DNA of 64,000 nt from an uncultured Bdellovibrionales bacterium (GTDB lineage: Bacteria > Bdellovibrionota_C > UBA2361 > SZUA-149 > DAOLCO01): NCBI GenBank assembly GCA_964353175.1, contig CAYGUX010000013.1:544-64543 (forward strand). Direction: 5' to 3'. The translations under genes and the position numbers were made by a program. Below, in pieces: positions 45,038 to 60,800 of the stretch. The first letter of the stretch is position 1, and the number at the start of each line of letters is the position of its first letter. Under the pieces are notes generated by a model. The model was not told where the DNA came from. It did not search any database and was given only the letters and a program-made list of their open reading frames with translations.

Positions 45038-45395
45038 TTAAAAATAACCCTAACTCTAAATTTCCTCTAATCCAACTTTATATCTAGTTGCAATGAACTA
45101 ACAGAGATAAGTAACAAACCCACGAAACCACACAAAAACCACGCATAATTAGATGCCCACTTCACAACCTAAGGCTCATAATAATATAAATACCGACTCT
45201 ACTCATTAGAAATTCTGCTCTTAGTTGGAACAGAAAGATAACTTGTAGATTTCAAGCAGACAATTGTGCAGTATTAAAGTGGTATTATTCGCTTATGCTG
45301 AGACTCGGTGACACACCAAAAGGATAAAAAAGAGAATGGATAAGGCGACTTTTATTAAATGTATAAGGTGGTTAAGTTAGTAGGTAGGCCACTAG
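44849..45395 (+). repeat. Long direct repeat copy 1 (cocE 5' end, upstream region and first short repeat)
   Basis: Aligns by eye with 57029-57590; about 20 mismatches in the first 190 bp. Confidence 0.92.
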
Positions 45396-45403
45396 TCTAC
45401 AGG
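45367..45403 (+). repeat. Island repeat R1 (type A)
   Basis: GGTGGTTAAGTTAGTAGGTAGGCCACTAGTCTACAGG; 33/37 identical to 56183-56219. Confidence 0.9.
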
Positions 45404-45405
45404 AA

Positions 45406-47094
45406 TTACTCTTTTGCACTGCCATTTTGCCAATATATCTGGCCCAAACCAAAAATCAAATCAGTTAGAATTTTCTTAAAAACGGAACTGAGACTTAAGT
45501 TTACAAAGCCTTCCCTACTCCATAATCGTTCAAACTTTTTACCCCTTCTATGAGCAACGCATGTGGAACGTACACTCTGAATGAGTAATAAAGAATTTAC
45601 TAAACCTTCTCCGCAATTAATTTTCTGTAAATCAAAGAAAAGTTCTAACCTTTTGATCCCCTCTAAATTACTCTCTTTTGGAATAAATTTAGCTATCTCA
45701 GATTGATTCAATGAATCAACCATAAGCTTAGTTAAAGACAAAATTTGACCGTCAAACTCTTCCTCGCCATCGTCTAAAGGAATCCTAAAACTTTTTTTCC
45801 TATACTGATCTTCCGCACGCAAATCCTTAAACAATTCCCAGCCAAAACTAGATTTCCATTTTTGATTGAATTCTTTTAGTTTCTTTAATAATATAAAATC
45901 TAATCGTTCCGCATCTGCCCATATTCCCAGCATATCTCTCTTGATTTTCACATCACTAAGACCAATCCCATTTGGAGCTATATTAAAGCTTTTCCAATAT
46001 AGTTGTTCCTTATTAGTTATCTGCTCACCCAAGTAACACAAATATACTATGACCTCATTCTCTTGATGATTATCTATATCAAGAATCTGTCCTGATTTAA
46101 ATTTTATATAACTATCCCCTACTTCATACTTATCTGTATTGCTATAATATTTTTTTAATACCTCTTTCTTAAAATATACTGGAGTCAGTTGATGAGGAGC
46201 TCCTTCGTTCCCGCCAAAGTAGTCGGCTAATTTATCTGGATCGCATGTAAAAGAACTTTCATCACCCATCTCATCAATTCCTATAATAAATTCTTCATAC
46301 TTACGAGTTCTATCTAACGGCCATTCTTCATTTTCATTTAAAGGAGTTGGTGGAAAGACAATCTTACCAAGTAAACGAGAATTGGATTTGAAATTTCTAC
46401 TTGCAAAATGTCCGCAATTTTGAAATGAAACATTAAAATTGTGGTATATATCCACGTCTAAAATACACTCCCTTTCTGAAAGTTCGTATTCTTCGATATC
46501 CGATAAAGAGAATTTAAAAATATCAAAAAAAAGCAATAACCCTTGCTGAGTGTATTTTAAGTACTGTCTTAGTTCTCTTTGTCTAACTTGAACTAAATTA
46601 TTAATCATAGTTATTACAGTTCTTTCCTCTCCGTCTTCATTATAGCAAACAAATTTCTGATCTTTATGAACGAAGTGCAAATTGTGAAAAAGTATGAACT
46701 CTTGAAGGACTTCCTGATAAATCACATTTTTCATTTCCCAAAATCTGTGGTGTATAAGGGGTTTAAAACCTTCCTTATCTCCTACTTCAAAATATTTTGA
46801 TTTCAATTGTCCATACTCAAAGCTGGTGATCGTGCCAGGAATACAGTCTCCAAGTCTAATATCCCAATTGTAATTTCGACAACATTCGGCTATTTTGCTC
46901 TTTATGACTAATGAAGAATATATTCCAACACTGTTTTGTGAACCCTTTAATTCGGATAGGCTATATACAGTAATCCAATCTTCTTTTAAGAACTGATATT
47001 TTAGATAGTCTCTTATCTCAGAGAATATTAGATCTTCTTTGGATGTCACATCTCTGTCCACTAATTCCTTGATAATGTTCATAATTATAGACAT
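45406..47094 (-). CDS. Conserved hypothetical defence-island protein with candidate C-terminal HEPN motif
   Basis: 562-aa AT-rich ORF; YFGGNEGAPHQLTPVYFKKEVL and EQLYWKSFNI blocks; C-terminal RSTCVAH (Rx5H). Confidence 0.65.
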   Translation of the reverse strand: MSIIMNIIKELVDRDVTSKEDLIFSEIRDYLKYQFLKEDWITVYSLSELKGSQNSVGIYSSLVIKSKIAECCRNYNWDIRLGDCIPGTITSFEYGQLKSKYFEVGDKEGFKPLIHHRFWEMKNVIYQEVLQEFILFHNLHFVHKDQKFVCYNEDGEERTVITMINNLVQVRQRELRQYLKYTQQGLLLFFDIFKFSLSDIEEYELSERECILDVDIYHNFNVSFQNCGHFASRNFKSNSRLLGKIVFPPTPLNENEEWPLDRTRKYEEFIIGIDEMGDESSFTCDPDKLADYFGGNEGAPHQLTPVYFKKEVLKKYYSNTDKYEVGDSYIKFKSGQILDIDNHQENEVIVYLCYLGEQITNKEQLYWKSFNIAPNGIGLSDVKIKRDMLGIWADAERLDFILLKKLKEFNQKWKSSFGWELFKDLRAEDQYRKKSFRIPLDDGEEEFDGQILSLTKLMVDSLNQSEIAKFIPKESNLEGIKRLELFFDLQKINCGEGLVNSLLLIQSVRSTCVAHRRGKKFERLWSREGFVNLSLSSVFKKILTDLIFGLGQIYWQNGSAKE

Positions 47095-47323
47095 CCTTCT
47101 AAAATTTAAAATTCAACATAAGCCATCTACTTTCAGCAAAACAACTAAAAAACTCTGTTGAGAATGTAAAAACAGATTCGAACTAACTTCCAATTAGATG
47201 ACAGATTATCGGTGCAGCCAGAAATAGATGCGACAAATTCGACCTGAATTTCAAAACTATTTATATAAGCCTTCAATTCACCAAACTACCTAATTTTCTG
47301 AAGAGATGATAAGATTTGAAAAA

Positions 47324-48586
47324 TTAACCAAGAAAGTGGCCTCTAATAATTGAATTTAGCGTTTCTATCTTTTTTTTAATTTCGTCAAAAGTAACTATCT
47401 CAACGTCGCGATTATTATTCCTAAAAAGTTCGAAAGCATATCTCTGCTTTCTATTTAGTGCCCCTAATGACCCAGCGAGTACGTAGCAGGTAGAACCTAT
47501 CGACTCAAATTCTTGTTCACTATTCAATTTAAGTGTAGCATACGATTTTTGAAAGTTATCACGTTGATTTAAGACTTGGTTAATACTCCCTCCCAATTCT
47601 CTTGTTGTACTAAAAACATCATTACCCCTATATGCTCTATCTTCTAAAAGCTTCGTTAAATGTGTTTTAATTTCAAAAAAAGCGACGTTCTCACTTAAAC
47701 TACTCTTGATTAAAATGTCAGTATATTTACCATTTTTATTGTCAATGGACTTTCCGCCTGTATAAGCCTCATCTTGAAATAAAATTACAGGTTGAGCGAA
47801 TATAGATGAAAATATCCAAGCATTATTTCTAAGGTATTTCTGCCATTTTTTTTCCAATGCAGTTACCATTTTATTTTGTGAAAATAGATCTTCAAATTCG
47901 GATAACGCACTCTCTATTAATCGGATATCGACAATTTCCTTTGTGCTTTTGAGTGATTCTAAGGATAAAAAATCAGTAGTTGATGATAATGATTCAAAAA
48001 GTTCCATGATCGCTTTCTTATCTTGCTCGGAGAATTCGTCTATTGCATTTCCCCATGTCGCAAGGGATAAAGACAACGCATTTTTTATATATTTAACATT
48101 ATGTTTCTCTATTTGTTTAGGAAAAAGATCATGCAAAAGACCTGTCAACACAACTTCAATTTCAGCTTTATTTTTTGCAAAAACAGCAGTAAAAGCGCCG
48201 TTCATCTTTTTCAAAGATAGTTCATTCAAATATAGCAATTTAGAAGTGCTATCAATCTTTGTGCAGCCACCCTTCTCTATAATAATTTCTCTGAACTCAA
48301 AATTTTTATCAAAATATCTAGCTACTGGTGCTAAAGTCTTCGTAAAGCCATACCCATAGAACGGTGACTTTATCATCCCAACCGGAATTTTCCCTCCAAA
48401 ACCAATAAATGATACCTTCTTTATTGTTTTATATTTTTGTCCTCCTTCAAAACCTCTGGGGTAATGCACCTCTAAATCTCGATTCTTAAAAACCTCTCTA
48501 GACAGTTGATCTATTCGTTCATCATCATCTACAAAATGGTAGACTTCTTTAGTCTTAAGATCTCGCTTCAGAATTTCTTCTTTCAT
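47324..48586 (-). CDS. sduA: Shedu anti-phage nuclease SduA (DUF4263)
   Basis: EKKWQ.YL..NAWIF, EAYTGGK, TDIL, FEIKT, ELGGSINQVLNQ and FELFR...VEIVTFDE motifs. Confidence 0.85.
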   Translation of the reverse strand: MKEEILKRDLKTKEVYHFVDDDERIDQLSREVFKNRDLEVHYPRGFEGGQKYKTIKKVSFIGFGGKIPVGMIKSPFYGYGFTKTLAPVARYFDKNFEFREIIIEKGGCTKIDSTSKLLYLNELSLKKMNGAFTAVFAKNKAEIEVVLTGLLHDLFPKQIEKHNVKYIKNALSLSLATWGNAIDEFSEQDKKAIMELFESLSSTTDFLSLESLKSTKEIVDIRLIESALSEFEDLFSQNKMVTALEKKWQKYLRNNAWIFSSIFAQPVILFQDEAYTGGKSIDNKNGKYTDILIKSSLSENVAFFEIKTHLTKLLEDRAYRGNDVFSTTRELGGSINQVLNQRDNFQKSYATLKLNSEQEFESIGSTCYVLAGSLGALNRKQRYAFELFRNNNRDVEIVTFDEIKKKIETLNSIIRGHFLG

Positions 48587-48775
48587 AAATAACTTACTGT
48601 AAAAACTTTTATTTTATAGAAAGTCAATTATACAAATCACGACACCTAAAGTAAAATGCGATACCATAGCGCCCCCATCTCCTCATTGTTAATAGAATTG
48701 GCACCATGAATTCTACTCAGCGCTTAGGATAATCAAATTTCAGTTTCTTCGGAAACTTAGATCTTAAAGTAAAGT

Positions 48776-48840
48776 CAGGTAGTTAAATAAGTAGGCAGGT
48801 GGTTAAATAGGTACGTAGGCTACTAGCCGACTCTAACTAA
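48776..48840 (+). repeat. Island repeat R2 (partial type A plus type B)
   Basis: CAGGTAGTTAAATAAGTAGG-CAGGTGGTTAAATAGGTACGTAGGCTACTAGCCGACTCTAACTAA. Confidence 0.92.
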
Positions 48841-48859
48841 TTACTCCCCCTATGCCACA

Positions 48860-50470
48860 TCAAAGCGGAAGTAAAGGCAAACCGAGTTCCTTTAAAAATT
48901 CATTATGTTTCATTGTAGCTTTATAAATAGTTTTCTCAATTTCAACAATTGAGCTATGCACTTTTTCAAGATCGATCTTCTCTTCTTCTTTTGCAGTACT
49001 CACGTATCTGGAAATGTTTAGATTAAAATCATTCTTTTCAATCTCCTCCATTGAAACTCTTTTCGAATATCGATCTTCTTCCTTACGAAACTGATACGTA
49101 TCAATAATTTTTCTGATATGTTCAGGAAGGAGTTGGTTTTGTCGTTTACCTTTTTCAAAGTGTTCACTCGCATTGACGATAAGTACGTCATCGTATTTTT
49201 TACATTTCTTTAAGACAAGTATGCAGACCGGAATACCAGTTGAAAAGAATAAGTTAGCGGGAAGACCAATTACTGTATCAATGTGATTATCTTTTAGAAG
49301 TTTGGTGCGAATTTTAGATTCTGCACCTCCACGAAATAGAACCCCATGTGGCAAAATAATAGCCATGGTACCTTCATCACTTAAGAAATGGAATCCATGC
49401 AAAAGAAAGGCAAAGTCGGCGGCAGACTTTGGCGCGAGGCCATGACCTTTAAAACGAAAATCTTCACCAATAGCTTCACTTGGTTCCCACCGATAGCTAA
49501 ATGGGGGATTAGCCACCACCGCGTCGCATTGAAGTTTCTTAGCTGGATTCATCTCACTCAGAACATTCCAATCATTAAGAAGGGTATCGCCATGATGAAT
49601 TTCAAACTCAGAATCTTTCATACCGTGCAACAGCATATTCATCCGGGCAAGGTTGTAGGTGGTAATGTTCTTTTCTTGTCCGTATATTTTTCCAATACTG
49701 TTCGGGCCAAGTTGATTTCGCACATTGAGTAGCAATGATCCCGAACCACATGCAAAGTCTAATATCTTGCTGAGTTTTTTCTTTTTACCGCTTGATGGGT
49801 CTTGACTGTCTAGCGTTACTATCTCAGACAATATGCTTGAAATCTGCTGAGGTGTGTAGAATTCTCCCGCCTTTTTACCAGATCCTGCAGCAAACTGACC
49901 GATTAAGTACTCATAGGCATCGCCTAGGGCATCGCTGTCAGCAGAAAAATCAGCAATTCCTTCAGCGATCTTGGTGATGATCGTGCAGAGTTTAGCATTT
50001 CTTTGGGTATAGTTTTTACCAAGCTTCTCAGAGTCGAGATTAATCTCAGAAAATAACCCGCGAAAACTATTTTCAAAAGATTTATTCTCAATGTATTTAA
50101 AGCCCTTTTGCAAAGTAAGCAAAAGATCCTTATCTTGAATTCTAGCAAGCTCTGAGATATTGCTCCAAAGATACTCAGGCTCTAAAACATAATGCACCTT
50201 ACGACGCATTTGTTTTTCAAAAGCTAGTATATCTTCAGAGTTCTTTTCATACCAAACACGAAGAGGTGGCCGTTTATCGTCTTCAGGAAGCTTCGGATAG
50301 TCTGACTGCAACTCCTTCTCTGCTGCAATTTCATAGTTACCAGATAAATATCTTAAAAAGATAAAGGACAACATATAATCCCGAAAATCATCGGCATTCA
50401 TCGCCCCGCGTAAATCATCCGCAATCGCCCAAAGAGTGATACCTAGTTTATTTCGCTGTTCTTCTGTCAT
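48860..50470 (-). CDS. hsdM: Type I R-M methyltransferase subunit
   Basis: LWAIADDLRG, GEFYTP, DFACGSGSLL, ANPPFS and LPHGVLFRG motifs. Confidence 0.97.
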   Translation of the reverse strand: MTEEQRNKLGITLWAIADDLRGAMNADDFRDYMLSFIFLRYLSGNYEIAAEKELQSDYPKLPEDDKRPPLRVWYEKNSEDILAFEKQMRRKVHYVLEPEYLWSNISELARIQDKDLLLTLQKGFKYIENKSFENSFRGLFSEINLDSEKLGKNYTQRNAKLCTIITKIAEGIADFSADSDALGDAYEYLIGQFAAGSGKKAGEFYTPQQISSILSEIVTLDSQDPSSGKKKKLSKILDFACGSGSLLLNVRNQLGPNSIGKIYGQEKNITTYNLARMNMLLHGMKDSEFEIHHGDTLLNDWNVLSEMNPAKKLQCDAVVANPPFSYRWEPSEAIGEDFRFKGHGLAPKSAADFAFLLHGFHFLSDEGTMAIILPHGVLFRGGAESKIRTKLLKDNHIDTVIGLPANLFFSTGIPVCILVLKKCKKYDDVLIVNASEHFEKGKRQNQLLPEHIRKIIDTYQFRKEEDRYSKRVSMEEIEKNDFNLNISRYVSTAKEEEKIDLEKVHSSIVEIEKTIYKATMKHNEFLKELGLPLLPL

Positions 50471-50472
50471 AA

Positions 50473-51711
50473 TTAATTTTCACCTATCTTTTCACCGAAA
50501 ATTTTCGGCAATGTAAATTGAAATGTTGTGGTAAATTGTCTAAGAATTTTACGAAAGAGATCCTGATTATCTTCTCCCATTGGCGTAGGCTCATGAACTG
50601 CGTATGCCCCATGACTCAATAAATTTAAGGCTCGATTAAATAAGGCCTCATTCTCCTGATTATCAAGAGCAGCAAGACAGAAAGAAATTTTAGAGTGTCC
50701 GAAAAAAGCTGCTGTCTTTTCCATAATAGTACGAAGCGCATTAAAATGAAACGTATAAAGAATTCCACTTTCCGGATCTGCAGCCTTATGCAATTCAGCA
50801 AGAGTAGCTACATGATGAAAAAAAGGAGTATCTTCTGTTGAGCGAAGCGTATATGATCCTTCACCATTTGGGCGATGAAGAAAATAGCGTTTATGATTAA
50901 TTCCTTTCTCAACTCCCTTCTTTCTTCCTATCTCGTTACACATCACATTAAAGAAGAGTGAATGATGAGTGGAAACTACGATTTTTAAAGGGTCGGAAGT
51001 TTTACTTTCATTAACGCGCTTTACTGCCTTTCGTAAAAGCTCAGAAAGATCACAAGCAACCGCAATAGCGTTGTTGTCATCTAGAGAAGAAATCGGATCG
51101 TCAATGTAAATGTACTTGACCCATCCGTATGCCTCATGTCCATCAATAACTCTCTCACAGATGGCCATGAAGATACACCAGACAAAAATAATTTCTTCAC
51201 CGCGAGAGATTTTTATATTTTCATCTTCGTTGTCTTCCTTCTCCTCTTTCCCCTTTTCTCCTTTATCCCGACTCTTTTTGAAAGTCTCCTTTCTAAAAGT
51301 AATAAAGTGAGGTCTGGAAAATGATTCTTCACCTTTTTGAATCTCTTTATATTCAATATTAAACTTAAAATCTGCGTAACGATCAAGGTACATTGCAATC
51401 GTCGGTTCAAGATCAAGGCTTGAAAAACCTTCAAAAAATCTAGAGTACTCGTTAATCTTCAAGCCCCTTTGAGAATCATTCTCTAAATCGTTTTCCCAAG
51501 TAAAAAGGTCTTCGGTAAACGCATTGAAATAAAGGGTATTAGGCTTGCCACCATTTTTATTTTTACACCGATCCTTAAACCCCATAGACAATCTAGTTTT
51601 TCCTGTCCGATTATAGGCATATAGAAGTACAATATCCTCGTTGTTAAGATCATCTCGAATCCGATCTACTAAACGATTTAAAGTTTGAAAGCTCTTTACT
51701 CCCTCGCTCAT
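50473..51711 (-). CDS. prrC: PrrC-type anticodon nuclease (ABC ATPase plus HEPN)
   Basis: YAYNRTGKTRLS (Walker A), YFNAFTEDLFTWEND (PrrC box), ISRGEE, IDDPISSLD, STHH and RALNLLSH; embedded in the hsd operon. Confidence 0.88.
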   Translation of the reverse strand: MSEGVKSFQTLNRLVDRIRDDLNNEDIVLLYAYNRTGKTRLSMGFKDRCKNKNGGKPNTLYFNAFTEDLFTWENDLENDSQRGLKINEYSRFFEGFSSLDLEPTIAMYLDRYADFKFNIEYKEIQKGEESFSRPHFITFRKETFKKSRDKGEKGKEEKEDNEDENIKISRGEEIIFVWCIFMAICERVIDGHEAYGWVKYIYIDDPISSLDDNNAIAVACDLSELLRKAVKRVNESKTSDPLKIVVSTHHSLFFNVMCNEIGRKKGVEKGINHKRYFLHRPNGEGSYTLRSTEDTPFFHHVATLAELHKAADPESGILYTFHFNALRTIMEKTAAFFGHSKISFCLAALDNQENEALFNRALNLLSHGAYAVHEPTPMGEDNQDLFRKILRQFTTTFQFTLPKIFGEKIGEN

Positions 51712-52949: not shown

Positions 52950-55900
52950 AAGCAGCCAGCCCCGAAATTTCTCTTCCTCGCGCTAGCTTCTTAAGCATTG
53001 GCGCTAAATCTTCCATTAACGTAAGCTCTGCTTGACTTCTTACCTTCCATCCTAAGTCCAAAGGCTCAAACAACTCACTCAAGCGTTCACCATCAAAAAT
53101 CATTCGACCTAAAATGCCATCAACGAACTCTTGTAAGATCTCTTTCTTAATTCGATGCTTCTCCGCCAACTCTCCTAATTCCTTTGCCAATTTTTCAGCT
53201 TTAAAACGTTCATATCCACGACGAACATCTTTCTCGTTAAGGCTGGTATTTGGAGTTAGACTATTGATGTAATCTACAATGTCTTCACGCTCATCCATTA
53301 AGTTTGAGCTTGAACAAATTAAATCAATTAATTGCCGCCGACTCATTTTTTGCTTGCTTGATTTATCATCTGTTGATTTCGCAATTAAGCCCATGATGTA
53401 ATCATAATCAATCAGGGCTGAAGCAAAAAGCACCAATTCGAATTCTAACTGCCGTACAGGATCATCTGCTTTGCTCTTACCTTGCTCCACCTTTAGTCGC
53501 TCAGCGGTTTCTAAATACGAACCTCTGAATGAACGCATTTGATCTTCAGGTAATAACTGCTCAATCTTTTCCTTCTGTTCAGAAGTTAAATCAGTATATT
53601 GATCCAACTGAGTTTTTAATCTCTGAACTTCCTTAAATCGATTTACGAACTCGATTCTGGCTGTGTCACCTTTTAGGCTGTAAACTGCTTCAGGCTCACA
53701 TAAAAGATCACTTGAAGTCATGAAATTTCCAAGCGCGGCAACAGCCTTTTCATATTTTTCTATAACTACTGGCGCTGGATCAACCAGCCAAATTTCTTTA
53801 GAGCGGTTTATATCTTGCCCTGAAAATCGCGCGATTGCAGTATTTACAGCATCTTCTTGGTAGCGAAAATCAAGAATATTTCCATATGGCTTCGTATCGT
53901 TTAGTACGCGATTAGTACGAGAAAATGCTTGGATCAATCCATGATACTTGAGGTTCTTATCTACATACAAGGTATTAAGATATTTTGAATCAAAACCCGT
54001 AAGTAACATATCTACAACAATTGTAATGTCGATCTTATTCTTACGTGGATAGTCCTGACTCGAATACTTTTGATCTTTAATCCTCTGCTGCACATCTTGA
54101 TAATATAGGTCGAATTCGTTGATGCTATGGTTTCTATCGTACTGCTCATTATAGTCAGATATGATTATTTTTAAGGCTGCCTTTTTCTCATCAGGAGATT
54201 GCTTGTTATCTTCTTTTTCCTGTGGCAGGTCCTCTTGAATCTGTTGCACATCTCTATTACCTTCCGCTGGAGGCGAGAATACACAGGCGACATTTAAATG
54301 CACGTAGCCTTCATCTTGAGCCAGCATTTTTGCCTGAGCTTCTTTTAACAATTCGTAATATTGGATTGCATCATTGATAGAAGAGGTCGCAAGTAAGGCA
54401 TTAAATCTTCTATGATTTGTTGCGCTATCATGTTTTTTAAGAATTTCAGCTACTACCAATTGGGGCGAGGCATGTCTAGGCTTTACCTTGTTCTTACCAT
54501 CTGTAGAAGCATTTTTAGGCTTTTCTCCGAAGTAATCGACATGAAATCGCAATACATTTCTATCATCAATTGCATTTGTAATCGTGTAAGCATGAAGCTG
54601 CTTCTCAAATATATCTTCAGTTGTAAGATACGAACCTATTGTACCATCTACCTTATTATAACTGGCATTGTCGTCAAAAATGGGTGTTCCAGTAAAGCCA
54701 AATAATTGCGCCCTTGGGAAAAAAGTTTTTATAGCCTGATGATTTTCACCAAACTGAGAACGGTGACATTCATCAAAGATGAATACTATCCGTTGATTTC
54801 TAAGGGGCTGAAGACGCTCCTTGTAAGTTTCCCTTCCACCTTGCTTGATTTGCTGATTTCGCTTGCTATTTTCATCTAACGCAAGTCCCAGTTTTTGAAT
54901 TGTAGTAACGATGACCTTATCGGCATAATCGTCTGATAGCATTCGACGAACCAGTGTCTCAGTATTGGTATTCTCTTCTACGCAACCCTCTTGAAACTTA
55001 TTGAACTCGTCTCTAGTTTGTTTATCCAGATCTTTACGGTCAACTACGAACAGGCATTTGTCGATGTCAGGATTATCTTTTAATAGGGTAGATGCTTTAA
55101 AAGAGGTAAGAGTCTTACCACTTCCAGTTGTATGCCAGATGTATCCATTCCCACGATTTTGGTGTATGCAATCAACGATCGCCTTAACAGCATATATTTG
55201 ATACGGACGCATCATCATCAATTTTTGTTCGCTTACAACCAAGACCATATAGCGGCTTATCATCTGACCTAGGGTGCATTTAGCAAGAAAGTTCTCTGCA
55301 AAATCGTCTAGGTGGGTGATCTTTGTATTATCTTCTTTTGCCAGCTGATAGATGGGTAAAAATCGCTCATCCGCGTCAAAGCTAAAATGCTGATTGTGGT
55401 TATTTGCAAAGTAGAGAGTATTGTCCCTATTGCTTACTATGAAAAGCTGGACGAAGCATAATAAAGTGTTCTCATAGCCGTTTCCAAGATCATTTTTGTA
55501 GTCGACAATCTGCTCCATCGCACGGCGAGGAGTGAGGCCCAAGGTCTTTAGTTCTATTTGAACAACTGGAATACCATTTATAAGTAGTATTACGTCATAC
55601 CGGTGATGGCTGCTATCTGTATTAATCCGAAGTTGATTAATTACTTCAAAATCGTTTTTGCACCAATCTTTAATATTAACGAGGGTGTACTGAAGAGGTG
55701 TTCCATCTTCGCGCTGAAAGGTGTTTCTTTCTCTTAAAGTTTTAGAGGCATTAAAGACATCCGAATCTACTATCTCATCTCGGAGGCGAGCGAATTCAGA
55801 ATCGGTCAGTTTTACCTGATTTAGGGCTTGAAACTTTTCACGAAAATTCTGCTCGAGAGTTAGCTTGTCACGAATATCAGGCCTGTATGCGTATTTGAGA

Positions 55901-55950
55901 TCCTTAAGTTTCTCAATTAATGCTTGTTCGATCTGCTGCTCTTTAGTCAT
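52942..55950 (-). CDS. hsdR: Type I restriction endonuclease subunit R (EcoR124-like)
   Basis: RYDV..LINGIPVVQIELK, WHTTGSGKT, DECHRSQFG, FTGTP, MLLTGFD and QAFSRTNR motifs. Confidence 0.97.
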   Translation of the reverse strand: MTKEQQIEQALIEKLKDLKYAYRPDIRDKLTLEQNFREKFQALNQVKLTDSEFARLRDEIVDSDVFNASKTLRERNTFQREDGTPLQYTLVNIKDWCKNDFEVINQLRINTDSSHHRYDVILLINGIPVVQIELKTLGLTPRRAMEQIVDYKNDLGNGYENTLLCFVQLFIVSNRDNTLYFANNHNQHFSFDADERFLPIYQLAKEDNTKITHLDDFAENFLAKCTLGQMISRYMVLVVSEQKLMMMRPYQIYAVKAIVDCIHQNRGNGYIWHTTGSGKTLTSFKASTLLKDNPDIDKCLFVVDRKDLDKQTRDEFNKFQEGCVEENTNTETLVRRMLSDDYADKVIVTTIQKLGLALDENSKRNQQIKQGGRETYKERLQPLRNQRIVFIFDECHRSQFGENHQAIKTFFPRAQLFGFTGTPIFDDNASYNKVDGTIGSYLTTEDIFEKQLHAYTITNAIDDRNVLRFHVDYFGEKPKNASTDGKNKVKPRHASPQLVVAEILKKHDSATNHRRFNALLATSSINDAIQYYELLKEAQAKMLAQDEGYVHLNVACVFSPPAEGNRDVQQIQEDLPQEKEDNKQSPDEKKAALKIIISDYNEQYDRNHSINEFDLYYQDVQQRIKDQKYSSQDYPRKNKIDITIVVDMLLTGFDSKYLNTLYVDKNLKYHGLIQAFSRTNRVLNDTKPYGNILDFRYQEDAVNTAIARFSGQDINRSKEIWLVDPAPVVIEKYEKAVAALGNFMTSSDLLCEPEAVYSLKGDTARIEFVNRFKEVQRLKTQLDQYTDLTSEQKEKIEQLLPEDQMRSFRGSYLETAERLKVEQGKSKADDPVRQLEFELVLFASALIDYDYIMGLIAKSTDDKSSKQKMSRRQLIDLICSSSNLMDEREDIVDYINSLTPNTSLNEKDVRRGYERFKAEKLAKELGELAEKHRIKKEILQEFVDGILGRMIFDGERLSELFEPLDLGWKVRSQAELTLMEDLAPMLKKLARGREISGLAAYE

Positions 55951-56167: not shown

Positions 56168-56219
56168 TTAAATTAGTAGCCAGGTAGTTAAATTAGTAGG
56201 TTGGCCACTAGCCTACAGG
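56168..56219 (+). repeat. Island repeat R3 (partial plus type A)
   Basis: TTAAATTAGTAGC-CAGGTAGTTAAATTAGTAGGTTGGCCACTAGCCTACAGG. Confidence 0.9.
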
Positions 56220-56303
56220 CACTATTGAAATACCCAAAGATTAGAAAAAAGAAGAGTAAAAACACTAAGGAAAAGATTCTCCAAATAAACTGCAAAGAAG
56301 AAA

Positions 56304-56383: not shown

Positions 56384-56863
56384 TCATTGTATTTGCAATA
56401 GTTCGCTCCCAGCACTAGTTATGGAATAAGTACCCTTTTCCAGTTTAGCTAATCCCAACTTAGCCAGAGAAGTCATGTAACTTCCAACTCCGCTTATACG
56501 GCCAGGATCTTCCTTCGCTTGGACATGAAGAGTGTTTCTGATGAACACGCTATTTTTAGGTCCATGCTCTTGGAGGAGGTGCAAAATAGACAACAATTGT
56601 TCTCCTTCCCGATGGAAGTCCTTAGTCGTGCCATGGTCTACCATTAACGAGGCCAGATTACGAAGTTGCTTCTGTCTGGGCATTGGAACTCCAGACAAGT
56701 CCGCTACTTCCTCCACCAATCTTGCCAACTCTGCTTGGATATTTACCATTGTATCCTGAATGCATTTAAGCCTTTTCAGAATAGCTGATACATTTACCTT
56801 CTTCTGCGCATCGCTACTACTCATAACGAACCTTTCAACTGAACCTAAAATTCGAGGCCACAT
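56384..56863 (-). CDS. Hypothetical protein, N-terminal coiled coil plus probable C-terminal winged HTH
   Basis: SYMTSLAKLGLAKLEKGTYSITSAGSELL resembles a wHTH wing; has its own terminator; start may be ATG 56824. Confidence 0.6.
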   Translation of the reverse strand: MWPRILGSVERFVMSSSDAQKKVNVSAILKRLKCIQDTMVNIQAELARLVEEVADLSGVPMPRQKQLRNLASLMVDHGTTKDFHREGEQLLSILHLLQEHGPKNSVFIRNTLHVQAKEDPGRISGVGSYMTSLAKLGLAKLEKGTYSITSAGSELLQIQ

Positions 56864-56990
56864 TAACCATACATCAAAATCATAGGAAACAATAGTGGCT
56901 GCAAATTATTTTCAAATAGTCCCTTTCCCGTATGCTGAAGATATCATCCTGCTTGTTGCAAAATGCCTTGATTTCATTAGATCTTTCAAA

Positions 56991-57030
56991 TAGTTAGATA
57001 AGTAGCTAGGCTACTAGCCGACTCTAACTA
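56991..57030 (+). repeat. Island repeat R4 (type B)
   Basis: TAGTTAGA-TAAGTAGCTA-GGCTACTAGCC-GAC-TCTAACTA; 8-bp outer and 5-bp inner inverted repeats. Confidence 0.92.
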
Positions 57031-57217
57031 AATCAATCCCATCCTTAGAAAAAAAACTTACACCTTCTGTTTTACTAACAGAGTGAGTTGATGGCCGAAG
57101 CTCACTTGAAGCTAAAAGCAAATTATCGTTTAAAAGATTAATGCTATAGGAGCACCCATAGAAAGAAGACAGAATCAATATAAGAACAAAAACTCTCATT
57201 TCCCCAAACACCCACAT
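57014..57217 (-). pseudogene. Truncated, diverged 5' copy of the cocE-family gene
   Basis: MRVFVLI...SKDGIDL matches 43268..45037 at 53/57 aa, then runs into repeat R4. Confidence 0.92.
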
Positions 57218-57590
57218 TTAAAAAATACCCCTAGCTCTAATTTCCTTTAATACAACCTTATATCTAGTCGCAATGAACTAACAGAAGTAAGTAGCAAGCC
57301 CACGTAACCACACAAAAACCACGCATAATTAGATGCCCACTTCACAACCTAAGGCTCATAATAATATGAATACAGACTATAGTCATAGACAATCCTGCTC
57401 TTAGTTGGAATTGAAAGTAGTTTGCAGAAATTCAAGCAGGCAATTATGCAGTATTAAGGTGGCATTATTGCGTTGTGCTTAGTCGCTGTGGCTAAGCAAT
57501 GCACTGAGAAGAGTTCGGGGAAGAGAAGGAATAACTCTACTTTTATCAAATTTATCAGATGGTTAAATAGGTACGTAGGCTACTAGCCGA
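57029..57590 (+). repeat. Long direct repeat copy 2
   Basis: Aligns with 44849-45395 (offset 12180 at the left end). Confidence 0.92.
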
Positions 57591-57598
57591 CTCTAACT
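57558..57598 (+). repeat. Island repeat R5 (type B)
   Basis: GATGGTTAAATAGGTACGTAGGCTACTAGCCGACTCTAACT; 39 bp identical to 48800-48838. Confidence 0.93.
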
Positions 57599-57627
57599 GA
57601 GAATTGGGGAATTAATAAGATAAGGAA

Positions 57628-57691: not shown

Positions 57692-58300
57692 CTATTCGAG
57701 TATCTGATTAAGACACCTCATGAACGCGTCATTGCTACCGATTTCCGAGGACACCACTGAAGCTTCCAAGACGGGGGCGTCTACTGCGACCAGAGAGAGA
57801 CGGAATTCTCGGCACCAATTTGCACTATCAAGTCCAATCTCTTTCAGAAGACCACTCCAGTTGCAGCTACCCAGAGACAACAGCAGCAAGAGCTTATAAG
57901 TCGCCGTCCTCTTTTCCGTCGGAACATCAATGATTTTTCCGTATTCCAGTTTGCAGAATTTCTGCCACTTTTCGAGAACGTCAAACCATTCAATTGCGGC
58001 AGACCTTACATCCCGAACAGTCTTGATCTTTCTGCTACCGATTGTAAATTCGAAATCCATTCCCTCTACGGTAGTACAAATAGAGTCAATTTCTTCTAGC
58101 GAGCAGACATCAAAAAGAAATTTTGTTACCCCTCCATTATAGCTCAGATCAGCCCATTGGATAGAGAACTCCTTGTTTCCCAAGTCACTGGTAGAGATTA
58201 GTAACATTACTCGAATACTAGTCATCTCAAAACTCCCGTCACGTAACCTAAAAACCTTTACCTTACCCACACTAGGTGAGGTACTCATAAAGAAGCACAA
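57692..58300 (-). CDS. Hypothetical protein (ORFan-like; start probably ATG 58288)
   Basis: About 200-aa ORF with a downstream terminator; no family recognised. Confidence 0.6.
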   Translation of the reverse strand: MCFFMSTSPSVGKVKVFRLRDGSFEMTSIRVMLLISTSDLGNKEFSIQWADLSYNGGVTKFLFDVCSLEEIDSICTTVEGMDFEFTIGSRKIKTVRDVRSAAIEWFDVLEKWQKFCKLEYGKIIDVPTEKRTATYKLLLLLSLGSCNWSGLLKEIGLDSANWCREFRLSLVAVDAPVLEASVVSSEIGSNDAFMRCLNQILE

Positions 58301-58323
58301 TTATGCTTCTTTATGAGTACCTC
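58278..58323. repeat. Perfect 20-bp inverted repeat with 6-nt loop over the start codon
   Basis: GAGGTACTCATAAAGAAGCA-CAATTA-TGCTTCTTTATGAGTACCTC. Confidence 0.95.
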
Positions 58324-58429
58324 TTATTTATTTTACCCAAATTGAATTTTAAAAGAGCAGTAGTTAGGTCGGAATAATAGCATTTAGATGAGTTGTAAGC
58401 AATAGGCTGTCCCAGGCTTCAGACAATTC

Positions 58430-58463
58430 CAGATGGTTAAACTAGTAGGTAGGCCACTAGCCC
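58430..58463 (+). repeat. Island repeat R6 (type A)
   Basis: CAGATGGTTAAACTAGTAGGTAGGCCACTAGCCC. Confidence 0.92.
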
Positions 58464-58538
58464 TGATTAGGTATATATTAGCTATGACTCAACCTTAGCA
58501 CGAAGCTCTAACAACAATGAATTTATGTGAGGAGTACC

Positions 58539-58573
58539 CAGGTAGTTAGGTCAGTAGGTAGGCCACTAGCCCC
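58539..58573 (+). repeat. Island repeat R7 (type A)
   Basis: CAGGTAGTTAGGTCAGTAGGTAGGCCACTAGCCCC. Confidence 0.92.
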
Positions 58574-58576
58574 AGG

Positions 58577-59206
58577 CTTACAGCTAACGAATTTTTCGAC
58601 CGCCAACTTGAAAAGATCCGAGAGATTAGGCTTTCTGAGCGCAAGTTTTATCAGAAGATTACTGATATCTACGCTACTGCATTAGATTATGATTCTTCAG
58701 CAAGTTCCACTAAACGTTTTTTTGCCGCTGTTCAAAATAAAATCCATTATGCTATTCATGGCAGTACGGCGGCTGAGGTGATAGTGGAGAGGGCAGACCA
58801 CACCAAAGATAATATGGGACTTACCAATTGGGATACTGCTCCAAAAGGTAAAATTCACAAATATGATGTTGTCGTCGCTAAAAACTATCTCTCAGACTTT
58901 GAGCTTGGGCAGATGGAGCGTATTGTATCTGCATATTTGGATATGGCAGAAATGCAGGCCATACGTAAAATTCCCATGACGATGAGCGACTGGGAGAAGC
59001 GCCTAAGTGGATTTCTGACGTTATGGGATAGAAATATCCTACAAGACGCTGGCAAAGTAACTGCTGAAATTGCGAAGGCTCATGCTGAAAGTGAATTTGA
59101 ATAATACCGCATCGTCCAGGATCACTTGTATGAATCAGATTTTGATCGACAGATAAAAGGATTGGAAGATCTCGAAAAGAGACTCTTAGAGCGTGTCGGG
59201 GGATGA
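58577..59206 (+). pseudogene. rhuM: RhuM family protein, 5' truncated, with internal stop
   Basis: EFFDRQLEKIREIRLSERKFYQKITDIYA...VQNKIHYAIHG.TAAE...AKNYL...ESEFE*YRIVQD.LYESDFD; TAA at 59102. Confidence 0.88.
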
Positions 59207-59262
59207 CGAGTAAGGGGAATTATATGGAGAAATTGTTAGATGGGGTGGAGGCGAAGAGGAAG
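59203..59262 (+). pseudogene. hsdS: 5' stub of a second hsdS gene
   Basis: ATGA overlap with the rhuM stop. MTSKGNYMEKLLDGVEAKRK resembles the type IC HsdS start (YLEKLLDGVEVEW) and is cut by repeat R8. Confidence 0.7.
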
Positions 59263-59311
59263 GTAGTTAGGTAGGTAACTTTTAATTAGTTAGGTAACTA
59301 GGCTACTAGCC
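59261..59311 (+). repeat. Island repeat R8 (composite)
   Basis: AGGTAGTTAGGTAGGTAAC-TTTTAATT-AGTTAGGTAACTAGGCTACTAGCC. Confidence 0.88.
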
Positions 59312-59389
59312 ACATCCATTCTCTCTGTTAGAAAACCATTCCACGACGACTAGTAGTTCTACATAGGCCCAAGGAATATTTTAATTCCT

Positions 59390-59700
59390 GGTCCGGATTG
59401 TCAGGCCTGATTTGGGGGCATGATACTTATGCAAAGTATATAAATACCAAAGCCACTGATTCGCAAGTACTTTCTGCCAGCAAGTATGGCGTTTTGATCA
59501 TAGGCATCAGTGCAGGATTACTTATATTGACTATTAAAGATTACCTAAATGGAGATGTGCTCTTCAATTTCAATAGAGCTGTCGCATCTGCGATAGCCGC
59601 TCCTCTAATACTATCAGTATTCTGGGCAAAACTACCAGAAATTCAATTGTATTTGCTACGCTTATCTCACTAATTATTGGTGCACCGCTTGCTTGGTGGT
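59390..59700 (+). pseudogene. Internal fragment of a sodium:solute symporter with frameshift
   Basis: WGHDTYAKYINTKATDSQVL...APLILSVFW, continuing in another frame as KTTRNSIVFATLISLIIG. Confidence 0.6.
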
Positions 59701-59757: not shown

Positions 59758-60042
59758 CTACGCCACTTTCTTTAATCTCACCTCCACCTCCATCCCCACA
59801 CCATCCACCATTCGTAACAACCGATCAATAGTTACCTTCTGCAAACTACCCGACAAAATTCCACTAACAGCTGAGCGAGGCAGACCTGACAACTCGGAGA
59901 GTTCAAGATGGGTAATATTGTTAACTCGAATATTATCCTGAATACCCTTAATAAGCTTTGCCTTTATAATAGCTTCGGTACTTCTAGCTCTAGAAATTCC
60001 TAGCATTGTAGATAGTTTTTTAGAATTGGTTCTTTTTTTCAT
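59758..60042 (-). CDS. HigA-like XRE/HTH antitoxin
   Basis: IKAKLI...THLELSELSGLPRSAVS.IL.G...VTIDRL; overlaps the toxin stop codon. Confidence 0.85.
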   Translation of the reverse strand: MKKRTNSKKLSTMLGISRARSTEAIIKAKLIKGIQDNIRVNNITHLELSELSGLPRSAVSGILSGSLQKVTIDRLLRMVDGVGMEVEVRLKKVA

Positions 60043-60353
60043 AGTATCCTTTTTAGCCGATCTGCTGCTGTCTTTAAATTCTGAATAGGGGTCTTGTTGC
60101 TTGTTTTAACAAAGGCATGGATCAACCATATTCCTTCTGCTCCCAAGATAACGAAAATAATCCTATAAATACTATTTCTATCCCTAAGCCTAAGTTCATA
60201 AACCCGCCTCCCGATAGTAGGCATAGGCCGACAAATGGGCATGGCTAAATTCTCTCCGTTTTCTAACCGAACAAGAAGATCAGCCAAATCACCCCTAACA
60301 TCTTCAGGAAACTCTAAAATCTCCTTTTGGCAAGGTTTCAAAATCTTTATCAT
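60039..60353 (-). CDS. RelE/HigB (Gp49/DUF891-like) type II toxin
   Basis: RPMPTIG..VYELR..D....YRI...IWLIHAFVK.S.KTP pattern; toxin-first order. Confidence 0.88.
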   Translation of the reverse strand: MIKILKPCQKEILEFPEDVRGDLADLLVRLENGENLAMPICRPMPTIGRRVYELRLRDRNSIYRIIFVILGAEGIWLIHAFVKTSNKTPIQNLKTAADRLKRIL

Positions 60354-60359
60354 CTGAGT

Positions 60360-60390
60360 GTCTCATATTTAAGACTTTGTCGTCAACAAG
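60360..60390 (-). promoter_or_regulatory. Putative TA promoter/operator
   Basis: Minus strand TTGACG...; imperfect palindrome GTCTCATATTTAAGAC just upstream of the toxin ATG; no SD visible. Confidence 0.4.
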
Positions 60391-60468
60391 AATCTGGTTT
60401 GAATAATGTGTTAATTATTTATCGTATTTATTTCAGCACTGAGCCAAAATAGTAGAACAAACCGATAA

Positions 60469-60517
60469 GCTAGTGGCCTACCCAAAAAGTTAAATAAGTA
60501 GGTACGCACTAGCCTAC
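60469..60517. repeat. Island repeats R9 (inverted) and R10 (direct) forming a doublet
   Basis: GCTAGTGGCCTACC (reverse complement of GGTAGGCCACTAGC), then AGTTAAATAAGTAGGTACGCACTAGCCTAC. Confidence 0.85.
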
Positions 60518-60536
60518 TGGAATAGGTAGTGATGAT

Positions 60537-60549
60537 TAAGTTATTGATT
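60537..60549 (-). promoter_or_regulatory. IHF consensus site
   Basis: Reverse complement AATCAATAACTTA matches WATCAANNNNTTR. Confidence 0.45.
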
Positions 60550-60580
60550 TTTCAATACCTATCGATCTGAGGTAGAAAAG

Positions 60581-60596
60581 GAGTTAGGTAGGTAAC
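60581..60596 (+). repeat. Partial island repeat R11
   Basis: AGTTAGGTAGGTAAC, identical to 59265-59279. Confidence 0.7.
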
Positions 60597-60800
60597 CAAA
60601 ACTCTTGGCTCCTCTCAGTTACCACCCAAAGTGCCACTAAATTAGACAAGTTACATAGACAGGTCTATGAGGACTCCCCCCTAATACCTCAAACTATCCC
60701 ATAGTTTCATATACTTAATACAAATCTATTTGGCATTTCAAATTCTTCTTGGTACAAAACATGAACATTATACTTTTCTAACCCATAACTATTTCAAAAC

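What the first reader, a model, noticed from the sequence alone, without database searches (positions are those of the whole stretch)
45367..60600. Repeat-delimited cassette array: a GTAG-tagged palindromic repeat marks the module junctions of a defence island
Seen: about 10 copies of one 35-45-bp motif, core GTAGG(TAGG)C(C/T)ACTAGCC preceded by RGTTARRY, at 45367, 48776, 56168, 56991, 57558, 58430, 58539, 59261, 60469 (inverted)/60488 and 60581 (partial). There are two subtypes: A, ...GTAGGCCACTAGCCTAC, which can fold as a hairpin, and B, ...GGCTACTAGCCGACTCTAACT. All but one face the same way, and I found none by eye in 1-45 kb or 60.6-64 kb. They bracket discrete cargo of 75 bp to 7.3 kb: [HEPN-like + Shedu], [hsdR-hsdS-prrC-hsdM], [wHTH ORF], [cocE 5' copy], [ORFan], [75 bp], [rhuM-hsdS' piece], [symporter piece + TA]. 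Repeats abut stop codons (2-bp and 19-bp gaps) and lie exactly at the break points of three clipped genes. All intact cargo genes are co-oriented on the minus strand. Known: GTAG plus hairpin is the architecture of REP elements cut by HUH RAYT/TnpA-REP enzymes, and GTTRRRY is the integron integrase core. REPs normally lie scattered between intact genes, attC sites read AAC...GTT (here GTT...AAC), and CRISPR spacers are uniform. Inference: these are recombination or acquisition scars of a trans-acting system that captures and shuffles DNA segments into a defence hotspot.
Basis: partly seen in the sequence, partly recalled or inferred. Interest (0 to 1): 0.9.

Follow-up and report, generated by a model that had tools for sequence, protein, structure and literature searches.

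The report
REP repeats partition a defence island
The repeat is real and belongs to a genome-wide family of short REP-type repeats that form the ends of a small HUH tyrosine-transposase element; nine copies, all facing one way, sit at the joints between phage-defence gene modules and broken gene pieces, which hints that this known repeat/enzyme pair helps to build or reshuffle such islands.

Summary
The core motif with up to 2 mismatches occurs 9 times in the window against 0.15 expected, all between 45.3 and 60.5 kb. The copies sit at module joints and at the break points of cocE', rhuM' and hsdS'.

The repeat is not specific to the island. A structure model finds 47 copies in the 3.2-Mb genome; 45 of 46 nhmmer hits are intergenic, and those outside the island mostly lie beside housekeeping genes.

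Inverted copies bracket all four members of one RAYT-like Y1 HUH transposase group, three in this genome and one in a congener. The only significant profile match among solved structures, and the best fold match, is the E. coli REP-associated transposase 4er8. Repeat and enzyme co-occur in 2 of 5 genomes and are both missing from the other 3. No integron integrase was found.

So this is a REP/RAYT system. The unusual part is a one-way array holding 19% of the copies in 0.5% of the genome, with gene-sized spacers.

The parts
43268..45037 (-). Left flank gene, cocE-like S15 peptidase
   Evidence: Pfam Peptidase_S15 and PepX_C
45366..45408 (+). REP copy 1, tail A. Lies 326 nt upstream of cocE. 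Its tail holds the ORF562 stop codon.
45406..47094 (-). ORF562, no family match. An R-x5-H motif near its C-terminus was seen by eye only.
   Evidence: no hits; not found in 30 relatives
47324..48586 (-). Shedu SduA
   Evidence: Pfam SduA_C E 5e-22; PADLOC SduA E 4.5e-68
48781..48839 (+). Half-REP (48781-48795) joined to REP copy 2, tail B (48797-48839)
48860..55950 (-). Type I R-M module with PrrC: hsdM 48860-50470, prrC 50473-51711, hsdS 51708-52949, hsdR 52942-55950
   Evidence: Pfam; PADLOC PrrC E 2e-125
56168..56224 (+). Half-REP (56168-56181) joined to REP copy 3, tail A (56182-56224)
56384..56863 (-). ORF159, no family match. It has its own terminator-like hairpin at 56304-56322.
56988..57030 (+). 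REP copy 4, tail B. The best-folding island copy.
   Evidence: DNA fold z -3.0
57026..57556 (-). Copy of the cocE 5' end (67 codons) plus its upstream region. 83% identical to 44846-45395 over 564 aligned columns. It starts at the edge of REP 4 and ends in REP 5.
57557..57599 (+). REP copy 5, tail B. 42 of 43 nt identical to copy 2 although the flanks are unrelated.
57692..58300 (-). ORF202, no family match. A 46-nt palindrome covers its start codon.
58431..58582 (+). REP copies 6 (58431-58462) and 7 (58540-58571), 77 nt apart from core end to copy start
58572..59203 (+). rhuM fragment. It lacks profile positions 1-72 and has an in-frame stop at 59102.
   Evidence: Pfam RhuM 73-242 of 252, E 1e-73
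59224..59256 (+). Eleven-codon ORF start that resembles an hsdS start (by eye, from memory of such genes), cut by the next half-REP
   Evidence: reading; too short for a family search
59257..59311 (+). Half-REP (59257-59279) joined to REP copy 8 (59280-59311)
59332..59673 (+). Decayed fragment of a sodium:solute symporter gene (profile positions 321-394 of 406)
   Evidence: Pfam SSF E 7e-4, below cut-off; no paralogue in the genome
59758..60353 (-). Toxin-antitoxin-like pair: HTH_37 (59758-60042) and Gp49/HigB-like (60039-60353)
60466..60520 (.). Inverted REP core (60466-60482, minus) next to forward REP copy 9, tail A-like (60488-60520)
60581..60597 (+). Solitary half-REP
60801..61550 (+). 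Right flank gene, Fe/Mn superoxide dismutase with a TAT signal

Best explanation
The repeat is a REP (repetitive extragenic palindrome) family. About 47 copies are spread through the intergenic DNA of this 3.2-Mb genome. The family forms the two inverted ends of a roughly 1.45-kb element that encodes a 327-aa RAYT-like Y1 HUH tyrosine transposase. That element is present three times in this genome, at C9:68643-69626, C6:42723-43703 and C32:12641-13621.

The cocE-sod interval is a strain-specific defence island in which nine copies, all reading the same way, have built up. Their 3' edge (...CTAGCC) lies at the same position as the outer terminus of the transposase element (...CTAGCT). DNA has been broken and rejoined at that edge and at the 5' edge. 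This leaves modules of the form [cargo + upstream region + REP], gene stubs (cocE', rhuM', a likely hsdS', SSF') and half-REP/REP doublets.

What is shown: the identity of the repeat, its link to the enzyme, and the positions of the joints.

What is inferred: that the joints arose by cutting and strand transfer of single-stranded REPs by the RAYT-like enzyme, or by host recombination between the direct REPs that this enzyme seeded.

My odds are 0.85 for REP/RAYT identity, about 0.55 that REPs caused the joints, and about 0.3 that the enzyme itself catalysed them.
For: Genome-wide family:
- nhmmer finds 46 hits at E<0.05, and 45 are intergenic on a map of ORFs of at least 100 aa that covers 86% of the genome.
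- The structure model R1 finds 47 hits, 9 of them in the island.

Link to the enzyme:
- All 4 of 4 group-a genes have an inverted copy about 150 nt upstream and a forward copy about 270 nt downstream.
- The C9 and C6 proteins are 97% identical, and in 40-nt windows the two units stay 82-100% alike at the DNA level from REP to REP, then diverge.

Enzyme identity:
- H61, H63, Y123 and N127 are invariant in 14 aligned homologues.
- NCBIfam REP_Tyr_transpos gives E 7e-15.
- The profile's only significant PDB match is 4er8 TnpArep, E 3.5e-9.
- The AF2 model has pLDDT 86.8. Its best Foldseek hit is 4er8_A, E 8.7e-7, ahead of the IS608, IS200 and ISDra2 TnpA structures.

Co-distribution: R1 hits number 47 in G000, 10 in G002 and 0 in G001, G003 and G004. 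Group-a orthologues (at least 74% identity) occur only in G000 and G002.

Joints. Two further clipped genes abut REPs outside the island, a Peripla_BP_6 C-terminal half at C13:70622-71170 and a permease at C43:9784-10656.

Stutter at the termini: short tandem reiterations of terminus plus flank occur at the upstream end of the C9 unit (period 22, 3 copies) and the C6 unit (period 25, 2.1 copies, 100% match).

No target-site duplications were found, as expected for Y1 enzymes.

A REP-bounded difference exists between the contigs C68, C24 and C49, which are about 90% alike.

In print:
- RAYT genes are flanked by inverted REPs. In-trans ligation between REPs was proposed as a source of rearrangements, and rayt 3' ends were found captured between REPs (PMC2817692, passages read).
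- TnpArep cuts single-stranded REP at C|T and transfers strands in vitro (PMC8266576, passages read).
- REP clusters are reiterated together with flanking DNA of variable length (PMC3733652, passages read).
Against: - The group-a protein is below both curated cut-offs: Pfam Y1_Tnp 18.7 bits against 23, and NCBIfam 55.1 against 80.
- It is about twice the length of solved RAYTs and is multi-copy, whereas RAYTs are typically single-copy (PMC5581495, passages read).
- GTAGG sits in the loop of the family-wide palindrome rather than only at its foot. The outer stem shows no covariation beyond shuffles: 45 of 500 shuffles reach the observed score.
- Six of the 8 single island copies folded do no better than shuffled sequence, so they may be dead scars.
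- REP orientation does not track GC skew: 11 contigs are opposite and 6 the same.
- No copy of the enzyme gene lies on this contig.
- No read, strain or circle evidence links the enzyme to any joint.
- Head-to-tail REP arrangements are described as rare in print (PMC3733652).
- Cargo ORF562, ORF159 and ORF202 were not found in any of 30 relatives, so no REP-bounded gain or loss of these modules could be observed.
Confidence: 0.6

Rival explanations
1. The REPs are passive passengers. The modules arrived by ordinary homologous or homology-facilitated illegitimate recombination from related strains. REPs later settled in the tolerant, gene-poor joints. RecA-dependent or slippage deletions between direct 35-45-nt repeats clipped the genes. 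The RAYT-like enzyme only seeds REPs and joins nothing.
For: - The cocE' copy is only 83% identical to cocE, which fits import from a relative's version of the same locus.
- Its joint shows micro-homology (AA-TAAATCAATCCC).
- Most island REPs fold poorly.
- REPs outside the island lie in ordinary intergenic DNA with no orientation rule relative to genes: 8 divergent, 6 convergent and 10 tandem contexts among 24.
Against: - Joints coincide with REP edges to within a few nt at both ends of the rhuM'-hsdS' piece and at cocE'.
- Copies 2 and 5 are 42 of 43 nt identical between unrelated flanks.
- The island edge ...CTAGCC matches the element terminus.
- The terminus stutter points to activity at that exact position.
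Confidence: 0.25
2. An integron-like or other site-specific tyrosine- or serine-recombinase cassette array, that is, a cluster of attC-like sites without an integrase.
For: Direct repeats follow co-oriented genes, GTT...AAC motifs occur in tail-B copies, and repeats lie close to stop codons.
Against: - There is no IntI. The 4 Phage_integrase-type genes score at most 58 bits against an IntI cut-off of 265, and none is on C13.
- The repeat unit is 33-43 nt, and the core-site order is the reverse of attC.
- Modules hold up to four genes and have upstream regions of 113-340 nt.
- The repeats are genome-wide and bracket an HUH transposase gene instead.
Confidence: 0.02
3. A host regulatory or structural element, such as a terminator, insulator or protein-binding site, that separates transcription units.
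For: - One copy sits at the same thyA-scpA locus in two species whose flanking proteins are 82% identical.
- The inner palindrome is well conserved.
- Some copies abut stop codons.
Against: - Of the 16 terminator-like sites in the island, only one touches a repeat, and that is the inverted core at 60464-60482.
- There is no consistent orientation relative to genes outside the island.
- ORF159 has its own terminator-like hairpin between its stop codon and the REP.
- This reading does not explain the clipped genes.
Confidence: 0.05
4. An assembly chimera: contigs of co-occurring strains were joined falsely through the repeats.
For: The genome is a 76-contig draft with 3.35% contamination. It holds contig pairs about 90% alike. 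Several REPs lie at contig ends.
Against: - Island copies differ from each other (67-86% identity to the reference copy), and the most alike share only 42 of 43 nt.
- The cocE' joint shares only about 12 nt with cocE, too little for a k-mer join.
- No other contig matches any island cargo.
Confidence: 0.03

Closest known systems
REP/RAYT systems (REPtrons; TnpArep of E. coli, PDB 4er8)
   Same: - A Y1 HUH enzyme with an HUH motif and a catalytic Tyr.
- The gene is bracketed by inverted repeats.
- The repeats carry an invariant GTA(G) next to a palindrome.
- Tens of copies, almost all extragenic.
- Each enzyme group in the genome has its own repeat.
- No target-site duplications.
   Different: - The enzyme is 327 aa with a C-terminal extension of about 180 aa, and it falls below the curated cut-offs.
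- Three copies, two of them 97% alike, which is IS-like.
- Copies are mostly singletons or head-to-tail arrays, not inverted doublets (REPINs, BIMEs).
- The spacers are gene-sized, from tens of bp to 7.3 kb, and hold defence systems.
IS200/IS605 insertion sequences and their palindrome-bearing derivatives
   Same: The same fold (IS608, IS200 and ISDra2 TnpA are Foldseek hits 2-10). Hairpin-bearing ends, no duplications, and multi-copy.
   Different: Those elements carry their end hairpins in direct orientation, and their TnpA is about 130-150 aa (from memory and chain lengths). Here the ends are inverted, and the best sequence and fold match is TnpArep.
Integron cassette arrays and attC clusters
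   Same: Direct repeats downstream of co-oriented genes. Single-stranded folded sites are the presumed substrate. Cargo is modular.
   Different: No IntI. The sites are shorter and unlike attC. The modules have their own upstream regions and can hold several genes. The sites are spread across the genome.
Neisserial intergenic mosaic elements (dRS3/RS arrays) and 'minimal mobile elements' (recalled, not checked in any call)
   Same: Short repeats delimit mosaic units between conserved genes. Variable cassettes, often restriction-modification systems, sit between fixed flanks.
   Different: Those are thought to act through homologous recombination after transformation and as phage integration targets, and no HUH enzyme is involved. 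The comparison rests on memory only.

Membership tests
REP/RAYT (REPtron) | Encodes a Y1 HUH transposase with an HUH motif and a catalytic tyrosine | tested here: met
   H61, H63, Y123 and N127 are invariant in 14 homologues. The profile hits only 4er8 at E 3.5e-9. The top Foldseek hit is 4er8_A, E 8.7e-7, TM 0.68 normalised to the target.
REP/RAYT (REPtron) | The protein reaches the curated family score (NCBIfam NF047646; Pfam PF01797) | tested here: not met
   NF047646 gives 55.1 bits against a cut-off of 80. PF01797 gives 18.7 bits against 23.
REP/RAYT (REPtron) | The gene is flanked by two copies of the repeat in inverted orientation | tested here: met
   True for 4 of 4 group-a genes: G000 C9, C6 and C32, and G002 C153.
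REP/RAYT (REPtron) | The repeat carries a conserved GTAG next to a palindrome | tested here: met
   GTA is invariant in 39 of 39 aligned copies. The inner stem TAGTAG/CTACTA forms standard pairs in 26 to 38 of 39 rows, depending on the pair. The outer stem is inconclusive, with no covariation above shuffles.
REP/RAYT (REPtron) | Many extragenic copies | tested here: met
   R1 finds 47 hits at E<=0.1. 45 of 46 nhmmer hits are intergenic. The family is small by REP standards.
REP/RAYT (REPtron) | Repeat and cognate enzyme co-occur across genomes | tested here: met
   Five genomes were tested. G000 and G002 have both. G001, G003 and G004 have neither the repeat nor a group-a orthologue (best identity 30-39%).
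REP/RAYT (REPtron) | Single-copy, housekeeping-like enzyme gene | tested here: not met
   Three copies in G000, at 100%, 97% and 81% protein identity. The whole unit is duplicated from REP to REP.
REP/RAYT (REPtron) | The enzyme binds and cleaves the single-stranded repeat | not testable with these tools
   This needs biochemistry.
Integron | An IntI-type integrase is present | tested here: not met
   The best TIGR02249 score is 58.3 bits against a cut-off of 265, among the 4 tyrosine recombinases found.
Integron | attC-type folded sites of about 57-141 nt (range recalled) after each cassette | tested here: not met
   The units are 33-43 nt. Six of the 8 single island copies fold no better than shuffles.
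DDE-type MITE | Terminal inverted repeats with target-site duplications | tested here: not met
   The longest word shared between the two flanks of each of 39 copies follows the null distribution.
IS200/IS605 autonomous IS | End hairpins in direct orientation on one strand | tested here: not met
   The two ends of all 4 units are inverted. The defining feature itself is recalled from memory, not taken from a call.

The most novel reading that the evidence does not exclude
The RAYT-like enzyme and its REPs work as an integron-like platform that needs no integrase. Single-stranded REPs in direct orientation would be cut at the ...CTAGC(C/T) edge and joined in trans. DNA lying between two REPs, or between a REP and a cryptic site, could then be excised, imported from related strains and stacked next to an existing REP. 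That process would have assembled this defence island module by module.
Probability: 0.17. Interest if true: 0.85.

Novelty: new variant of a known kind. Interest (0 to 1): 0.5.

Why it matters
As far as I recall, how defence islands gain and lose systems where no recombinase gene is nearby is still unresolved. Here a known but poorly understood pair, REP repeats and their HUH tyrosine transposase, marks every module joint of such an island. The joints sit at the nucleotide position that also ends the transposase element. If the enzyme makes these joints, REP/RAYT systems would act as cassette-shuffling machinery and not only as intergenic passengers, and the array offers defined substrates for testing this. 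If it does not, the case still shows that a dense one-way REP array makes an island prone to modular deletion and rearrangement.

Tried and rejected
**Integron.** Rejected. There is no IntI and the sites are unlike attC.

**tRNA- or ncRNA-derived att site.** No tRNA lies in the island. The only Rfam match at E<=1 in 44-62 kb is a chance microRNA hit on the 58278 palindrome.

**The four Y1_Tnp genes found first as the cognate enzyme.** Rejected. They are flanked by a different repeat, GTAGCCCCGCACC. That repeat has 50 copies with up to 1 mismatch, and none is on C13.

**Terminator role.** Not supported.

**Coupling of orientation to replication.** The test against GC skew gave 11 contigs opposite and 6 the same, which is inconclusive.

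**Hairpin covariation.** The 13-pair stem shows no covariation beyond shuffles.

**Target-site duplications.** None found. A 9-nt word, CCCAGGCTT, flanks the REP 6-7 doublet. By the null distribution this is a chance of roughly 2 in 100, and I left it open.

**Comparison across strains.**
- cocE was not found in G001-G005.
- sod is only 42-67% identical in those genomes.
- The aas-like neighbour is not syntenic.
- ORF562, ORF202 and ORF159 were not found in 30 relatives.
- No strain comparison of the cocE-sod interval was therefore possible.

**Exact 20-mer scans.** Scans of genome contigs and metagenome contigs each gave one hit. I read the metagenome hit (L030); it lies in what looks like coding sequence, and I treat it as chance. 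I did not open the genome-contig hit (L029) and count it as chance only because about 4 chance hits were expected for that scan.

**Paralogues of the cargo or fragments in the genome.** None.

**Rows left out.**
- Alignment A1 used 38 of the 39 nhmmer hits with E<=0.005. C68:346 was dropped because it duplicates C24:2215. The G002 copy was added.
- Alignment A2 used 14 of 16 homologues. L054 (short ORF call) and L002 (near-identical to L001) were dropped.
- ORF maps are my own: ORFs of at least 100 aa, with overlaps resolved greedily. They are not a gene caller's output.

**Papers.** I read found passages only, not whole texts. These include Additional file 4 of PMC2817692, on rayt ends captured between REPs, and the additional files of PMC3733652. 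They may hold closer precedents. One search for REP together with defence hotspots returned one unrelated review. This is a thin basis for saying that the arrangement is not in print.

Full report

Yes. The 14-nt core with up to 2 mismatches occurs 9 times in the window. All matches lie between 45384 and 60481. Shuffles give 0.15 on average. The repeat finder aligns 7-8 copies of 29-43 nt in register. Reading the sequence adds an inverted core at 60466-60482 next to a forward copy at 60488, and half-copies at 48781, 56168, 59257 and 60581.

- an unassigned 562-aa ORF plus Shedu SduA;
- hsdR-hsdS-prrC-hsdM;
- ORF159;
- a copy of the cocE 5' end;
- ORF202;
- a short spacer;
- a rhuM piece followed by an 11-codon ORF start that looks like hsdS;
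- a symporter piece plus an HTH/Gp49 pair.

These assignments rest. All intact genes are on the minus strand.

The joints are sharp:
- cocE homology begins at 57026-57031, at the end of tail B.
- The RhuM match starts at profile position 73 of 252, 12 nt after the repeat edge.
- The 11-codon start runs into a half-copy at 59257.

The hairpin claim is weaker. Six of the 8 single island copies folded do no better than shuffled sequence.

**2. The repeat is not confined to the island.**

The window is C13:544-64543 of a 76-contig, 3.2-Mb genome with 38.5% G+C. A profile built from the island copies finds 46 sites at E<0.05, and 45 of them are intergenic. A structure model finds 47.

Outside the island I scanned 40 flanking ORFs.
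- Most that matched a family are ordinary genes: periplasmic binding proteins, aldehyde dehydrogenase, MurJ, an M20 peptidase, a racemase, cytochrome c, a SufS-like aminotransferase with NifU, CobW and TauE.
- Two look accessory: an Imm32 immunity protein and an AAA_14/DUF4143 ATPase.

The 24 outside copies that have two neighbouring ORFs show no orientation rule. Eight are in divergent contexts, 6 in convergent and 10 in tandem.

The family-wide core is TTA..TAGTAG-GTAGG-CTACTA, and its GTA is invariant in 39 of 39 rows. A few copies, among them three on C18, are perfect 13-bp hairpins (z -4.6 for the one folded). The outer stem shows no covariation above shuffles.

**3. The enzyme.**

A 327-aa ORF at C9:68643-69626 had no Pfam hit at the default threshold. 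It lies between two inverted copies of the repeat.
- It has HUH and Tyr motifs.
- It is 24% identical over its full length (E 3e-33) to four paralogues that pass the Pfam Y1_Tnp cut-off.
- It matches NCBIfam 'REP-associated tyrosine transposase' at E 7e-15, below the cut-off.

A 14-sequence alignment keeps H61, H63, Y123 and N127 invariant. The profile of that alignment hits only 4er8, the E. coli REP-associated transposase, at E 3.5e-9. The AF2 model has pLDDT 86.8. Its best structural match is 4er8_A, followed by the IS608, IS200 and ISDra2 transposases.

The genome holds two more close copies, C6 at 97% and C32 at 81% protein identity. A congener, G002, holds one at 74%. All four have the repeat inverted about 150 nt upstream and forward about 270 nt downstream. 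In 40-nt windows the C9 and C6 units stay 82-100% alike from repeat to repeat and then diverge, so the unit [REP-gene-REP] has itself been copied.

Two other RAYT-like groups in the genome each carry different end repeats.

The repeat and the group-a gene also travel together. The model finds 47 sites in G000, 10 in G002 and none in G001, G003 or G004. Only G000 and G002 hold a group-a orthologue.

This matches the published definition of a REP/RAYT unit: the gene is flanked by inverted REPs that carry GTAG (PMC2817692 and PMC3733652, passages read). Multi-copy status and protein length are the exceptions (PMC5581495, passages read).

**4. What is special about the island?**

Nine of the 47 copies (19%) lie in 15.2 kb, which is 0.5% of the genome. 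The forward copies all read the same way. Orientation is also uniform within other contigs: C18 has 4 of 4 alike, C12 3 of 3 and C68 3 of 3.

Island copies share the 3' end ...ACTAGCC. This is closest to the downstream end of the element...ACTAGCT. The point where island copies stop being alike is the point where the C9 and C6 elements stop being alike.

Each module reads [cargo, its upstream region, REP]. The cocE' piece shows this most clearly. It is a stretch 83% identical to cocE that begins at an arbitrary point inside the gene and ends in the same upstream REP as the native gene.

Half-REP/REP doublets are joined at ...GTAGG|CAGG at 48781 and at ...GTAGC|CAGG at 56168. A similar doublet lies at C68:2247.

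The upstream termini of the C9 and C6 elements are preceded by tandem reiterations of terminus plus flank. By eye the same is true at C32, although TRF reported nothing there.

Outside the island two more clipped genes abut REPs. Contig C68 is about 90% alike to parts of C24 and C49, and the switch from one partner to the other happens at REP edges. In G000 the order is thyA-folA-REP-scpA, while in G002 it is thyA-REP-scpA.

**5. Mechanism.**

Published work shows that TnpArep cuts single-stranded REPs at C|T on either side of the hairpin and can transfer strands in vitro (PMC8266576). Nunvar et al. proposed in-trans ligation between REPs as a source of rearrangements, and they noted rayt gene ends captured between REPs (PMC2817692). 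Di Nocera et al. describe REP clusters reiterated with flanking DNA of variable length (PMC3733652).

The island fits a gene-scale version of this. Cuts at the REP edge and rejoining to another REP, or to a cryptic site, would give direct arrays, hybrid tails, half-REP doublets, clipped genes and an absence of target duplications.

The same picture could arise if the enzyme only seeds REPs and host recombination between direct copies does the rest. I cannot separate these two readings.

**6. Rejected readings.**

- Integron: no IntI.
- Terminator or insulator: only 1 of 16 terminator-like sites touches a repeat, and that is the inverted core.
- DDE-type MITE: no target duplications.
- Replication-coupled orientation: not significant.
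- Assembly chimera: unlikely, given the divergence between copies and the roughly 12-nt overlap at the cocE' joint, but not excluded without reads.

**7. Verdict.**

The repeat is a REP family of an IS-like RAYT element, which is a known kind. The one-way array with gene-sized, defence-laden spacers and joints at the element's terminal position is an unusual variant worth testing. The claim that it captures cargo remains unproven.

Noticed in passing
G000 C8:39027-40007, C19:41363-42343, C18:1117-2097, C4:157623-158600 (outside the window): A second RAYT-like group of four near-identical 326-aa genes that pass the Pfam Y1_Tnp cut-off. Each is flanked by its own GTAG repeat, GTAGCCCCGCACC, which has 50 copies with up to 1 mismatch and none on C13. 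A third group (C18:9345-10322, C1:271283-272212) has ends AAAAAGAGGTTGGTACCTAT.
   Followed up: partly
G000 C6:45588-48082 (outside the window): A single 794-aa Cys-rich ORF with a hydrophobic N-terminal stretch (seen by eye) and no family match. It is bracketed tightly, at 17 nt and 12 nt, by two inverted copies of the same REP, and it lies 1.9 kb from the C6 RAYT-like gene.
   Followed up: partly
G000 C2:240533-243000 and L011 (G002): The same REP sits upstream of scpA in both species. G000 has folA between thyA and the REP, and G002 does not.
   Followed up: partly
G000 C68 versus C24:1-2240 and C49:9239-9509: The 2.7-kb contig C68 is 89-93% alike to parts of two other contigs. The switch between partners falls at REP edges. 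It may be a co-assembled strain variant.
   Followed up: partly
window 58278-58323: A 46-nt near-perfect palindrome (stem of 20 pairs or more) covers the ORF202 start codon. It is also the top terminator-like site on the plus strand.
   Followed up: no
window 58403-58424 and 58570-58590: The word CCCAGGCTT flanks the REP 6 / REP 7 doublet on both sides. By the null distribution this is a chance of about 2 in 100.
   Followed up: partly
window 51733-51843 and 52324-52434: An internal 111-nt repeat, 72% alike, inside hsdS. Two-domain specificity subunits usually have such a repeat (my recollection).
   Followed up: no
G000 C68:382-651 and at least 8 other contigs: An unrelated repeat of about 270 bp, 75-94% alike, present on C22, C33, C1, C36, C9, C8, C6 and C12.
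   Followed up: no
G000 C18:14450-26046 (outside the window): A second one-way run of four to five REPs, most of them perfect hairpins, across 11.6 kb. The genes between them are metabolic and of mixed orientation.
   Followed up: partly
window 9687-9921: tRNA-Ile and tRNA-Ala lie side by side, the usual spacer pair of an rRNA operon (my recollection).
   Followed up: no
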